A stretch of 64,000 nt of DNA from an uncultured Nitrospiraceae bacterium (GTDB lineage Bacteria > Nitrospirota > Nitrospiria > Nitrospirales > Nitrospiraceae), in NCBI GenBank assembly GCA_963730935.1, contig CAVSTP010000002.1:192001-256000 (forward strand), given 5' to 3'. The notes below the pieces were generated by a model, which was given only the letters and a program-made list of their open reading frames with translations, had not been told where the DNA came from and ran no database searches. The translations under genes were made by a program, and so were the position numbers. This document shows positions 1,513 through 6,166 of this stretch, in pieces; the first letter of the stretch is position 1, and each line of letters starts with the position of its first letter.

Positions 1513-4227
1513 ATGCTGACACAACTTCTGAATCTTATTTTCGGCAGCAAGAACGACCGTGAAATCAAGGCCTTGATGCCAATCGTCCAGCGCATCAACG
1601 CCCTGGAACCGGAGCTGACTCCGCTGTCCGATCACGCCCTGGCCGACAAAACGCAGGCCTTCAAGAAGCGCTTGGCTGTCGACGAAACCCTTGACGATAT
1701 TCTTCCTGAAGCGTTCGCGGTCTGTCGGGAGATGTCCCGCCGAAAGCTCAACATGCGGCATTTCGACGTGCAGCTGATCGGCGGAATGATCTTGCACAAG
1801 GGCCGGATCTCCGAAATGAAGACCGGCGAAGGCAAAACGCTCGTCGCGACGTTGCCGATCTATCTCAACGCCCTCGAGGGCAAAGGCGCCCATCTGGTCA
1901 CGGTCAACGACTACCTGGCTAAACGCGACGCACAGTGGATGGGGCAGCTCTACCATGCGCTCGGCCTCTCCACAGGCGTCATCCAGCATGATGCCTCGTT
2001 CATCTACGACCCGACGTACGATGCCGCCGACAAGCGGCTGCAGCATCTTCGCCCCTGCACCAGATTCGAGGCATACCGCGCCGACATTACGTACGGCACG
2101 AACAACGAATACGGGTTCGACTACCTTCGTGACAATCTCGTCGTGACGGCCTTGGATCAATGCGTGCAGCGCGAACTGAATTTCGGGATCGTGGACGAAG
2201 TGGATAGCATCCTGATCGACGAAGCACGGACGCCGCTGATCATTTCCGGCCCGACCGACCAGACGACGGACCTTTATTACCGCATCAATGCCATCATTCC
2301 GCAGCTCAAGCCGGAACACGACTACACGATAGAAGAGAAGACCAAGACCGCCGCGCTCACGGAAGAAGGCAATGTGCGCGTGGAAAAGCTATTGGGCGTC
2401 GACAATCTCTATGATGCCGACAACATGGATCTCGTGCACCACGTCGTGAAGGCCCTGCAGGCCTATGCGCTGTACAAGCGCGATGTGGACTATGTGGTCA
2501 AGGACGGGGAAGTGATCATCGTAGACGAATTCACCGGGCGATTGATGCCCGGACGTCGATGGAGCGACGGCTTGCACCAGGCGGTTGAAGCCAAAGAGGG
2601 CGTCAAAATCGCCAACGAGAATCAGACGCTGGCCTCGGTGACCTTCCAGAACTATTTCCGCATGTACAAGAAACTGGGCGGCATGACCGGCACGGCCGAC
2701 ACCGAGGCGGCGGAATTCGCAAAGATCTACAACCTTGACGTGAACGTCGTCCCGACAAACCGGAAAATGATCCGGCTGGACTATGCCGACGTCGTGTACC
2801 GCACGGAGAAGGAAAAATTCGCCGCGATCGTCGAAGAGATCAAGGACTGTCACCAACGGGGACAGCCGGTACTGGTCGGCACGATCTCCATCGAGAAATC
2901 GGAAAAAATTGCCGGCATGCTCAACCGCAACGGCATCAAACACAACGTGCTCAACGCAAAACAGCACGAACGGGAAGCCGAGATCGTCGCGCAGGCCGGC
3001 CGCAAGGGCGCCGTGACGATCGCGACGAACATGGCGGGACGCGGGACGGACATCCTTTTAGGCGGCAATGCCGACTTCATGTTCAAGCAGGTCCTCTATC
3101 GTGAGGAAGACTTGCCGGACGAGCGGAAGCTTACCGTCTATGAAGAGATCCGCACGGATTGCGAGAAGAACAAGCAGGAGGTGCTCGGCCTCGGCGGACT
3201 CCATATCCTGGGAACGGAACGGCACGAGAGCCGCCGTATCGACAACCAGCTGCGAGGCCGTGCGGGCCGTCAGGGCGATCCGGGCTCGTCCCGGTTCTAT
3301 CTGTCGCTTGAAGACGACCTGATGCGCATCTTCGCTTCCGAACGTGTCTCGCAGCTCATGCTCAAGCTCGGCATGGAAGAAGGCATCCCGATCGAGCACG
3401 GGATGGTTACGCGCGCCATTGCCAACGCCCAAAAGAAGGTCGAAGCGCACAATTTTGAGATCCGCAAACAACTGCTTGAGTACGACGACGTCATGAACAA
3501 GCAGCGGGAAGTGATCTACCAGCACCGACGGGCTGTCCTGAGCGGCGAAAACCTGTCTGACGACCTGCGACAGATGATGGGAGCGATGGTCGAGTCCGCG
3601 CTCAATGTCTATTGCCCTGCCGAACAGTATCCGGAAGAGTGGGACATGAAAGGTCTCACCGAGATGATGCAGGGCCAGTTCGGGCTGGACATCACGCAAG
3701 GTAAGCAGGACAGCGGCGAATCGCTCAGGGACGTCGGCCGGGACGCGCTCCTTGAAGATCTGAAGGCCCAGGTCCAGGACGCCTGCGAACGGAAGGAAAA
3801 GGAACTGGGGCCGGAACTCATGCGGTTCCTGGAGAAGAATTTCATGCTGCAGGTGATCGACCATCATTGGAAGGACCATCTGCTGGCGATGGACCATTTA
3901 CGCGACGGCATCGGCCTGCGCGGGTACGGCCAGAAAGATCCGCTGATCGAATACAAACGCGAAGGATACGACCTATTCGCCGGCATGATGGAACGCATTA
4001 AGTCGGACACCATCGAACGGCTCTTCCTGGTGCAAGCCGTTCGTGAAGGTGAGCGCTCCGCCCCTCCGCCTCCCGTGATATCACGGCCGCAGCCGAAACT
4101 CACGTTGAATCGCGGGGAAGAACCGGTTTCCACGCAAACAGTCCATCGCAGTGACGATAAGGTGGGGCGCAATGACCCCTGTCCCTGTGGCTCCGGCAAA
4201 AAATATAAGAAGTGCCACGGGGCGTAG
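1513..4227 (+). CDS. secA: Preprotein translocase subunit SecA
   Basis: MKTGEGKT Walker [30 protein letters not shown], and a C-terminal SEC-C zinc motif ([19 protein letters not shown]). Confidence 0.99.
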
Positions 4228-4257
4228 GATAGGATCGCTGCGCCCGCCTCTCCCACG

Positions 4258-4813
4258 CGTCAATTCGACCGTTCTAGATCTCACTACTGCTTGGCATCGA
4301 AACTAGTTCCGTTCCATGCGAGGCATGAACGGAACGTCGAACATCGACGCCACTCGCTTTCAGCGAGCCGCATCCGTTCGACAGAACGGTTCCCGAATTG
4401 CCGCAAAGGTCGAGAGATGGCGCAGCGGTCCTTGAAGGAGGACGAAGATAGTGAGTGGGTCCCGGCTTCTCCGGCAAAGTAAGCGAATAGCTCAGCGGCG
4501 TGCTAAGAGGGTGGAATCCTGCCCCCAGCCTTCGCGATTCGCAAATCCCGGACTAACGAGGCCGGAAGGGTGAGGGAGGACAAAGAACGGTGTTCGATTA
4601 TTGAGTGAGATTCGGAATCATCCATCCTTCCCAAAGGGAAATCGCAGCGCTTTGCGAGTGACTTGCCGACAATTCGGGAACCGTTCCGACGAACCAATTG
4701 CACCCTACCAGAGGTGGGTGACGCCGATGTCTGAAGTTCCGTCCCGCGACGCGTCGGACGGAACGAGTTTCGGCGTCTAGCAGTTGGTGAGGAAGGAATC
4801 GGTCGAATTGACG
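4258..4813. other. Large non-coding fold-back element (long imperfect inverted repeat; candidate structured ncRNA or palindromic mobile element)
   Basis: Perfect 14-bp IR 4258-4271/4800-4813 and perfect 17-bp IR 4384-4400/4670-4686. Imperfect pairing continues across ~4258-4450 vs ~4618-4813 on one symmetry axis (~4535), with an inner hairpin at 4462-4565. No credible ORF. Confidence 0.8.
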
Positions 4814-4856
4814 GCTCGGAACGAGCGAGAGCGCTGCAATTCTCCCTTATTCCACC

Positions 4857-4886
4857 TTGACTTAGCGCAGTTGCAAAGGCTACTCT
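4857..4886 (+). promoter_or_regulatory. Putative sigma70 promoter of the midA-nuo region
   Basis: TTGACT-N18-TACTCT about 105 nt upstream of the start at 4991. Confidence 0.45.
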
Positions 4887-4990
4887 ACGCCACTTTTGGG
4901 CTCAGTGTAGGTGGGCGCGGCTGACCCATCTGCTATGGGTGTCACTATTTTTCGCATTTTTTCGCATCGATCCTTTCTGAGGACCTTGTT

Positions 4991-6166
4991 GTGACGACCG
5001 GTCATCCCGAACTGGTTGCTGCCATCGCCTCCGAGATCGGCCGTCATGGGCCGATTACCTTCGCCCGCTTCATGGAACTTGCGCTGTACCACCCGCAGTT
5101 CGGCTACTATATGCGCCCGTCGGATCCCGGCACGGAGCGAATCGGCTGGGATGGAGATTTTTATACCAGTTCGGACGTTCACCCGATCCTCGGACAGGCG
5201 ATGGCGAAGCAGGCAGCCCAGGTCGACGCACTGCTGGGCTACCCGGATCCCTTCACGATCGTCGAAATGGGACCCGGCAAAGGTCTCCTGGCCAAGCATC
5301 TGTTGTCGCATTGTCAGCTGATGTCCAAATCCTTGGCTCAACGGCTGCGTTATGTGCTCATCGAATGCAGCCCGGCCATGCGCGCACTTCAGCAAGAACA
5401 GCTGAGACCTTGGCTCAGGCACTCGGGTCCGGTGAGTTGGCTGGAAGACATCAGCAGCCTCGCGCCCGGCAGTATCACAGGCCTCATGTTCAGCAATGAA
5501 TTGACGGATGCCTTTCCTGTGCATCGGGTAGAAAAAGTCGGCCATGGCCTCAAGGAAATCTTCGTGGAGGTCCGGGACGGGCGGTTTGTGGAGCGCTTAC
5601 AGGAAGTGTCGACGCCTGAGATCAAAGACTATTTTCGAGGTTTGCACATTGATCTCCCTGAAGGATATCGCACAGAGATCAATCTCCAAGCGCCCGTCTG
5701 GATGCGGCAGGTCGCGGCAAGCATGAACCGCGGCGTCGTAATTACGATCGACTATGGACATTCGGCCGAGGACCTCTACGGTCCTCAACGGTCAAAAGGC
5801 ACGCTGCTCTGCTACCGCTCACAGATGGCGTCCGAAGATCCCTTTGTGCGGGTGGGCTTACAAGATATGACCGCGCACGTGGACTTTACGACGCTGGCCA
5901 CGGCGGGCGAGGAGGCCGGACTCTCCGTGACCGGCTTTACCAATCAAATGAGCTTCCTGATGGGGCTCGGCGTCGAAGAGATGATCGCGCAACTGACGCC
6001 GGAAACTCCGGAATTTCGAGCGGCCCTGCATCTGCTCAAGCCCGAGGGCATGGGACGGACCTTTAAAATTCTTGTCCAGCACAAGGGCCTCGAGGCGCCC
6101 ACCCTCGACGGATTGATCTTCAAACCGTTTTTCGGGTCAGCATTGAGCCGCCACGCTGCGGCGTAA
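4991..6166 (+). CDS. SAM-dependent methyltransferase, MidA/NDUFAF7 family
   Basis: FARFMELALYHPQFGYY, GDFYTS, VEMGPGKG, FSNELTDAFP, IDYG and DMTAHVDF are hallmark MidA motifs. GTG start. Confidence 0.9.
   Translation: MTTGHPELVAAIASEIGRHGPITFARFMELALYHPQFGYYMRPSDPGTERIGWDGDFYTSSDVHPILGQAMAKQAAQVDALLGYPDPFTIVEMGPGKGLLAKHLLSHCQLMSKSLAQRLRYVLIECSPAMRALQQEQLRPWLRHSGPVSWLEDISSLAPGSITGLMFSNELTDAFPVHRVEKVGHGLKEIFVEVRDGRFVERLQEVSTPEIKDYFRGLHIDLPEGYRTEINLQAPVWMRQVAASMNRGVVITIDYGHSAEDLYGPQRSKGTLLCYRSQMASEDPFVRVGLQDMTAHVDFTTLATAGEEAGLSVTGFTNQMSFLMGLGVEEMIAQLTPETPEFRAALHLLKPEGMGRTFKILVQHKGLEAPTLDGLIFKPFFGSALSRHAAA

What the first reader, a model, noticed from the sequence alone, without database searches (positions are those of the whole stretch)
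4258..4813. ~560-nt non-coding fold-back element between secA and the complex I promoter
Seen: the gap has no credible ORF but is self-complementary over its whole length. CGTCAATTCGACCG (4258-4271) pairs perfectly with 4800-4813, and GAACGGTTCCCGAATTG (4384-4400) pairs perfectly with 4670-4686. The intervening segments also pair on the same axis (ACATCGACGCCACTCGC with GTGGGTGACGCCGATGT; GCGCAGCG...GGAGGACGAAGAT with ATCATCCATCCTTCC...CGCAGCGC), giving an outer stem of about 190 bp. Each arm carries its own hairpin (GTTCCGTTC..GAACGGAAC 4306-4335; GTTCCGTCC..GGACGGAAC 4736-4764), so rod and cruciform folds are alternatives. The apex holds an off-centre hairpin (CCGGCTTC/GAGGCCGG, TCCGG/CCGGA, GCGAAT/ATTCGC; 4462-4565). 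In the two segments I checked base by base, mismatches were mostly transitions giving G-U pairs on both strands, so I cannot assign a strand. Inference: an undescribed large structured ncRNA or a REPIN/MITE-like hairpin element. It matches no RNA class I recognise.
Basis: seen in the sequence. Interest (0 to 1): 0.85.

Follow-up and report, generated by a model that had tools for sequence, protein, structure and literature searches.

The report
Two facing copies of Nitrospira repeat
The long fold-back is not one RNA but two back-to-back copies of a roughly 200-base folded DNA repeat of Nitrospira and its relatives; the repeat docks at gene ends, turns over fast, and sometimes brackets toxin-antitoxin genes like an integron cassette site.

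Summary
The fold-back is real (z -6.2/-9.7) and not an assembly artefact, but it is not one ncRNA. It is two inverted, 67% identical copies (4231-4432, 4633-4848) of a ~200-nt self-folding repeat plus a remnant of a third. Rod and separate folds are isoenergetic, arm mismatches show no strand bias, and a close relative forms no rod. The repeat has 35 copies here and occurs in 35 of 40 Nitrospiraceae genomes. It is a branched structure: 36 of 52 pairs covary around a near-invariant internal loop. One strand, antisense to the gene whose stop it abuts, carries GNA triloops, tandem G.A and G.T pairs, pointing to single-stranded DNA rather than RNA. Repeat-bearing gaps turn over fast (10 of 10 vs 11 of 32), and co-oriented copies bracket toxin-antitoxin pairs in relatives. 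No cognate RAYT, IntI or RT was found. This scan noted what appears to be this family before on other DNA (e1-4190226; probably e1-4223072). Verdict: undescribed REP/attC-like ssDNA element; enzyme unknown.

The parts
1513..4227 (+). secA; its stop codon is the left anchor
   Evidence: 904-aa ORF; orthologues hit SecA Pfam families
4231..4432 (-). Repeat copy A (structured strand is -, its 3' end abuts the secA stop); closing stem 4231-4244/4419-4432
   Evidence: (I9), CM hit 4240-4416 at 153 bits (in the model's seed)
4301..4343 (-). Core of copy A: near-invariant internal loop (4336-4343 opposite 4301-4305) around hairpin P4 (4306-4335)
   Evidence: invariant columns; same loop in 25 of 25 hits examined from other genera/families though P4 changes sequence
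4353..4367 (-). Short hairpin P5 of the three-way junction of copy A
   Evidence: 5 of 5 pairs covary (helix 6)
4433..4521 (.).
   Evidence: no homologue beyond a 23-nt match, E 0.026, in the loci and genome searched
4522..4632 (-). Remnant of a third copy (subtype B, anchor-distal arm) plus spacer, as in G010 and G030 where B is whole and sits at the secA stop
   Evidence: local alignment to L170 and L169
4633..4848 (+). Repeat copy C (structured strand is +, its 3' end abuts the methyltransferase promoter); closing stem 4633-4651/4830-4848; core loop 4728-4735 / 4765-4769 around P4 4736-4764
   Evidence: (I5), CM hit 4655-4831 at 126 bits (in the seed), pattern hit
4857..4886 (+). Putative -35/-10 promoter (18-nt spacer), the right anchor; inferred
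   Evidence: conserved in orthologous gaps; does not reach the sigma-70 scan threshold
4991..6166 (+). SAM-dependent methyltransferase (PF02636), first gene before nuoA

Best explanation
The 556-nt rod is a by-product: one repeat copy docked at the secA stop and another at the next promoter, facing each other. The functional unit is a ~200-nt non-autonomous element whose strand antisense to the anchoring gene folds as single-stranded DNA into a long stem with tandem G.A pairs, a three-way junction and a near-invariant internal loop. A protein acting in trans (not identified; an HUH or tyrosine-recombinase-like ssDNA enzyme is the best guess) recognises that loop and joins new copies, sometimes with cargo genes, at or into resident copies, so the same gene ends are re-occupied by different subtypes and remnants pile up. 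Shown: unit, copy number, covariation, strand bias, orientation, turnover, cargo arrangement. Inferred: DNA rather than RNA, enzyme-driven movement, recognition of the loop.
For: Unit: 35 CM hits in own genome, 35 of 40 family genomes, 1-35 copies, 3 of 101 genomes outside the family (inspected). Structure: 91.8% cells paired, 36 of 52 pairs with two-sided change, 0 of 500 shuffles. Strand: P4 loops GNA 46, its mirror TNC 3, GNRA 1 of 119 resolved; G.T 58 vs A.C 24 and four tandem G.A-type motifs, the outermost 23/23 and 21/23; that strand folds better in 116 (RNA) or 120 (DNA) of 130. GNA mini-hairpins are far more stable in DNA than RNA (PMC13037366, passages). Orientation: 16 of 29 full copies have that strand's 3' end within 40 nt of a convergent stop, 0 the other end. 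Turnover: vs G030 (proteins mostly 90-100% identical) 10 of 10 repeat-bearing gaps changed vs 11 of 32 others, Fisher p 5e-4; subtypes A, B, C swap at the secA anchors; stacked remnants, many breaking near the core loop or hairpin tips. Cargo: toxin-antitoxin pairs between co-oriented copies at secA (L004), msrB (L102), L317, L318, L319, L326.
Against: No partner gene found: no copy within 1.5 kb of 43 Y1-transposase/integrase loci (one 10.9-bit partial in 48 loci); own genome has no RT, IS110 or IntI match (the IS91 search rang in no control), and its only Y1 transposase is flanked by its own inverted repeats, a separate 21-copy family. No leading/lagging bias (15 vs 14), which lagging-strand HUH elements often show. 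Breakpoints are spread over several positions, not one. The 130 copies are related, 31 of 46 GNA loops are one variant, and 48 triloops are not GNA. Tandem G.A and G.U pairs fit RNA equally well. Copies persist at the same anchors (secA, tenA, purC, msrB) across genera, which could mean host function instead. 11 of the control gaps also changed, partly through my rough gene calls.
Confidence: 0.55

Rival explanations
1. Same repeat, but no dedicated enzyme: hairpins break at replication, and RecA, gene conversion and template switching between copies rebuild the gaps; cargo enters by homologous (Campbell-type) recombination.
For: No cognate enzyme found; direct repeats around cargo extend beyond the element at about 85% identity by eye (L317, L318); scattered breakpoints; a collapsed 89-nt B/B hairpin in L178.
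Against: Does not explain why unpaired loop letters stay fixed across families while the stem beside them changes wholly, nor the one-way orientation at stops.
Confidence: 0.15
2. A multi-copy ~200-nt RNA transcribed from the structured strand, antisense to gene 3' ends (regulator or ribozyme-like).
For: Covariation, conserved loop, G.U and tandem G.A pairs are RNA-compatible; type I copies often carry a fixed 5' leader with an AT-rich edge that could be a start site.
Against: GNRA 1 and UNCG 0 of 119 loops vs GNA 46; no conserved -35 or other motif upstream of the leader; no U-tract at the 3' end; the two RNA runs laid give no contig over the cores (low depth, so weak).
Confidence: 0.14
4. 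One 556-nt structured ncRNA.
For: Significant fold on both strands; A and C are each other's closest copy in the genome, though narrowly (0.67 vs 0.66); large rods also form in L169 and L186.
Against: Arrangement not conserved; no strand bias in the rod; middle is a remnant of another copy; G015 (SecA 97%) keeps only a ~90-nt fragment.
Confidence: 0.04

Closest known systems
REP / REPIN / BIME repeats with RAYT (Bertels & Rainey 2011, PMC3116915; Di Nocera et al. 2013, PMC3733652; passages read)
   Same: Extragenic, multi-copy, lineage-restricted, near gene ends, compensatory stems, mosaic clusters, thought to move as ssDNA.
   Different: ~200 nt and branched instead of 20-40-bp palindromes; conserved part is an apical loop, ends vary per copy; no fixed GTAG/CGTC tag; no transposase gene flanked by it.
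Integron attC sites and the attC-like DUF1874 motif (Weinberg et al. 2017, PMC5737381, passages read; attC box consensus recalled)
   Same: Site directly behind a gene, antisense strand folds, sequence varies under a kept structure, co-oriented gene+site arrays with toxin-antitoxin pairs.
   Different: No attC core boxes (0 of 130), no IntI, most copies solitary behind housekeeping genes, arrays at many anchors; no Rfam hit to DUF1874 or any family.
ERIC / RU / RUP-type bacterial MITE-like repeats (recalled; PMC2759123 and PMC3049150 seen as search listings only)
   Same: Length class, stable folding, intergenic spread, nesting.
   Different: No shared terminal inverted repeat sequence, no target duplication seen, marked strand asymmetry.
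TIRtron repeats of TIRYT transposases (PMC3733652, passages)
   Same: Such a gene and its 21 repeats exist in this genome and share some mosaic gaps.
   Different: A separate short family; only 1 of 21 lies within 400 nt of this repeat.

Membership tests
REP/REPIN | Short (20-40 bp) conserved palindrome with terminal GTAG/CGTC tag | tested here: not met
   Unit ~200 nt; GTAG in first/last 45 nt of 10/3 of 130 copies, CGTC 32/26, no fixed place
REP/REPIN | Inverted doublet is the replicating unit | tested here: not met
   Two full inverted pairs and one partial among 35-38 copies; most copies solitary
REP/REPIN | Cognate RAYT gene flanked by the repeat | tested here: not met
   0 of 43 loci (30 best Y1_Tnp loci of 81 genomes, 13 own integrase loci); not all Y1 matches were fetched
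REP/REPIN | Extragenic, multi-copy, compensatory hairpin | tested here: met
Integron attC | Inverse core and core boxes at the ends (consensus recalled) | tested here: not met
   0 of 130 on either strand
Integron attC | IntI integrase in the genome | tested here: not met
   best 86 bits vs cut-off 265 in own genome; other genomes not tested
Integron attC | Gene(s)+site units in co-oriented arrays, antisense strand folded | tested here: met
   L317, L318, L319, L326, L102, L004; loci were picked for holding 2 or more hits
Integron attC | Recombination of the folded strand by the integrase | not testable with these tools
   needs bench assay
MITE | Family-wide terminal inverted repeats and target-site duplication | tested here: inconclusive
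   Closing stems differ per copy; the filled/unfilled sites compared with G030 were too rearranged to read a duplication
Rfam RNA families | Covariance-model hit | tested here: not met
   none at gathering score in the window; only chance-level hits at E<=10 on 4200-5000 and E<=5 on 20 other loci
Intrinsic terminator | Hairpin followed by U-tract on the transcribed strand | tested here: not met
   none on + in 4150-5000; two on -, shuffle mean 1.0
Class I (I-R3) self-cleaving DNA | 17-nt core, 15 conserved (PMC7053750, PMC8216280, passages) | tested here: not met
   substrate word in 2 and enzyme word in 1 of 130 copies; loop here is shorter on the enzyme side

The most novel reading that the evidence does not exclude
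The repeat is the recombination site of an integron-like gene-capture system without IntI: a branched, three-way-junction ssDNA site with a sequence-specific loop, planted behind housekeeping genes across Nitrospirota, into which toxin-antitoxin and other cassettes, or bare new sites, are inserted by an enzyme not yet known.
Probability: 0.25. Interest if true: 0.85.

Novelty: new variant of a known kind. Interest (0 to 1): 0.58.

Why it matters
Natural ssDNA elements more complex than a hairpin are rare (Weinberg et al. 2017 say so of attC-like motifs, PMC5737381). A phylum-wide branched one with a fixed loop, fixed docking polarity and cassette-like cargo would point to an unknown ssDNA-processing enzyme and to a route by which Nitrospira gains and sheds accessory genes. 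The locus itself teaches a caution: long, significant fold-backs in these genomes arise when two copies face each other and should not be called ncRNAs.

Tried and rejected
Assembly fold-back: rejected (arms 67% alike; independent contigs). Rfam: nothing. Phages, plasmids, viral contigs: no match. RAYT, integrase, IntI, RT, IS110, IS91 partner: none linked; RT occurs in 2 of 5 genomes with no repeat beside it. Recurrent neighbour among 115 pattern loci: only anchor genes and shadow ORFs. Replication-strand bias: none. I-R3 DNAzyme likeness: core not met. RNA evidence: runs X15 and X19 give 136-151-nt contigs at depth 2-3 on the outer edges only; contigs cannot show strand or level, so neither for nor against. 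RNAalifold on the mixed alignment A1 recovered only the two apical hairpins because two subtypes misalign; the structure was then set by hand on 23 type II copies (A2), so pair counts lean towards it. A raw count of GNA words (176 vs 38) was not used: it includes a word in a paired arm. P5 loop census was mostly unresolved (72 of 130). Literature: searches returned no description of this Nitrospira element; subscription papers and the supplements of PMC5737381 were not seen and could list it.

Full report
Observation. The pairings quoted are present at the stated coordinates and the region folds far better than shuffles on both strands (z -6.16 and -9.72). It is genomic: in two independent DNA studies, contigs about 99% alike cover 4085-4643 and 4602-5300. 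The gap lies between secA and a PF02636 methyltransferase that precedes nuoA. Rfam gives nothing.

What it is made of. BLAST and iterated nhmmer found 38 related sites in the own genome; a covariance model built from 23 copies finds 35. Each arm is one ~200-nt copy that closes on itself: A at 4231-4432 and C at 4633-4848, in opposite orientation. 4522-4632 matches the far arm and spacer of a third subtype, B, which is whole at the secA stop in G010 and G030. Allowing only local pairs costs 0.5 kcal/mol on + as RNA, 1.0 and 0.0 as DNA, 12 on - as RNA. Mismatches between the arms are 16 G.T and 17 A.C, as expected of two diverged copies, not of a selected helix.

The gap in relatives. Of 33 genus genomes 29 gave the secA end. 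By profile search 8 hold both orientations (G020's second copy seen in L030), 9 only the promoter-side copy, 4 only the secA-side copy, 8 none (some end at a contig break). Subtypes A, B and C replace one another at both anchors. Of 7 two-orientation gaps folded, 3 form a long rod and 4 form 0-5 long-range pairs, among them G010 whose SecA is 99.4% identical. L178 holds an 89-nt collapsed hairpin, L192 is empty, L004 carries a MazE-type antitoxin plus PIN toxin between B and A. The rod is therefore an accident of two facing anchors; the same geometry recurs at C3:754 kb between convergent genes.

The unit. On its structured strand it reads: variable closing stem; tandem G.A; two long stems with a bulge; a three-way junction bearing a short hairpin (P5) and a stem that leads through a near-invariant internal loop to hairpin P4. 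On alignment A2, 91.8% of cells pair and 36 of 52 pairs have two-sided changes, beyond all 500 shuffles and all slid controls (structure hand-set from one row, sequences related). The loop letters are kept in 25 of 25 hits inspected from other genera and families although P4 varies from a 3-bp mini-hairpin to 13 bp of unrelated sequence and P5 is missing in G230. No match in viral contigs, phages or plasmids.

Strand and polarity. Of 176 full copies, 130 remained after dereplication; 121 matched the P4 pattern and 119 loops resolved: GNA 46, TNC 3, GNRA 1, other triloops 48, other 21. G.T outnumbers A.C 58 to 24 and four tandem G.A-type motifs lie on the same strand. C(GNA)G mini-hairpins are much more stable in DNA than RNA (PMC13037366, passages), so I infer ssDNA, at about 70%. 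That strand is antisense to the anchoring gene: 16 of 29 full copies end within 40 nt of a convergent stop, none with the other end; no replication bias (15/14) (own gene calls). Anchors are ordinary genes (sucC, purC, tenA, glnE, deaD) and the same anchors recur across genera (secA, tenA, purC, msrB).

Dynamics. Against G030, all 10 repeat-bearing gaps of 150 nt or more fell below 70% identity versus 11 of 32 others (p 5e-4; about 280 kb of G030 examined). Gaps hold stacked remnants: 5' arms cut at the lower stem, before the core loop or after the first arm of P4; 3' arms starting at the loop's second strand; a second repeat inserted at the P5 tip. Among 11 loci fetched because they hold two or more hits, 9 have co-oriented copies; Pfam-recognised toxin-antitoxin genes lie between them in 4 (Phd-ParE; Gp49-HI1420; DUF2442; ParE), core purS-purQ in 2, and no or unnamed genes in 3. 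L318 is site-genes-site-TA-site. RelE+HTH pairs lie between copies at msrB (L102, L127), BrnT-BrnA beside one in G030. In the own genome no toxin-antitoxin family was found among 67 neighbours scanned.

Mechanism. Most likely a non-autonomous ssDNA element whose loop is read by a trans-acting enzyme that joins new copies at or into old ones (0.55). Against: no linked enzyme. None of 43 Y1-transposase or integrase loci has a copy within 1.5 kb; the own genome lacks RT, IS110 and IntI matches; its one Y1 transposase fits the TIRYT class with a separate 21-copy repeat (PMC3733652, passages). Rivals: passive hairpin instability with homologous recombination (0.15), antisense RNA family (0.14), mRNA 3' element (0.10), single 556-nt RNA (0.04).

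Known kinds. It works like REP/REPIN/BIME repeats in place and behaviour and like attC in polarity and cargo, but fails the defining tests of both. The nearest printed idea is the multistem, attC-like DUF1874 motif (PMC5737381, passages), which Rfam does not match here. Seven literature searches found no account of it. Earlier notes of this scan describe what seems the same family on other DNA; I could not align their sequences, and they are unchecked AI notes, not support.

Verdict. Observation confirmed; single-ncRNA reading rejected; an undescribed branched, probably ssDNA, repeat family of Nitrospirota with cassette-like behaviour. New variant of a known kind, interest 0.58.

Noticed in passing
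L031:1219-1866 (G000:C4:809,465-810,112): Y1 (HUH) transposase of TIRYT type between short inverted repeats that form a 21-copy family, clustered at C4 798-852 kb and 1.46-1.51 Mb.
   Followed up: partly
G000 C4 1.38-1.54 Mb and relatives: A fixed ~25-nt leader with a sharp 5' edge heads type I copies and at least two other repeat families; 39 matches at one mismatch in the genome, 21 within 400 nt of a copy. Copies A, B, C were not seen to carry it.
   Followed up: partly
e.g. G000:C4:785,750-785,980; L291: A second repeat family is inserted exactly at the P5 tip of type I copies; 10 of 10 matches lie within 400 nt of a copy.
   Followed up: partly
G000:C3:753,990-754,484 and C4:788,546-788,903: Two more inward-facing pairs of the repeat that should give similar long fold-backs.
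   Followed up: no
L318:232-2535: Three co-oriented copies bracketing two two-gene units, one a Gp49/HI1420 toxin-antitoxin pair, the other (81 and 87 aa) without a Pfam hit.
   Followed up: partly
L050 vs G030:C2 and G006:C61: An ~11-kb block between two co-oriented copies in the own genome is absent from that place in two relatives; junctions not resolved.
   Followed up: partly
L062: A 2.1-kb contig titled Bryobacterales holds an msrB-type copy close to the Nitrospira ones; possibly misbinned.
   Followed up: no
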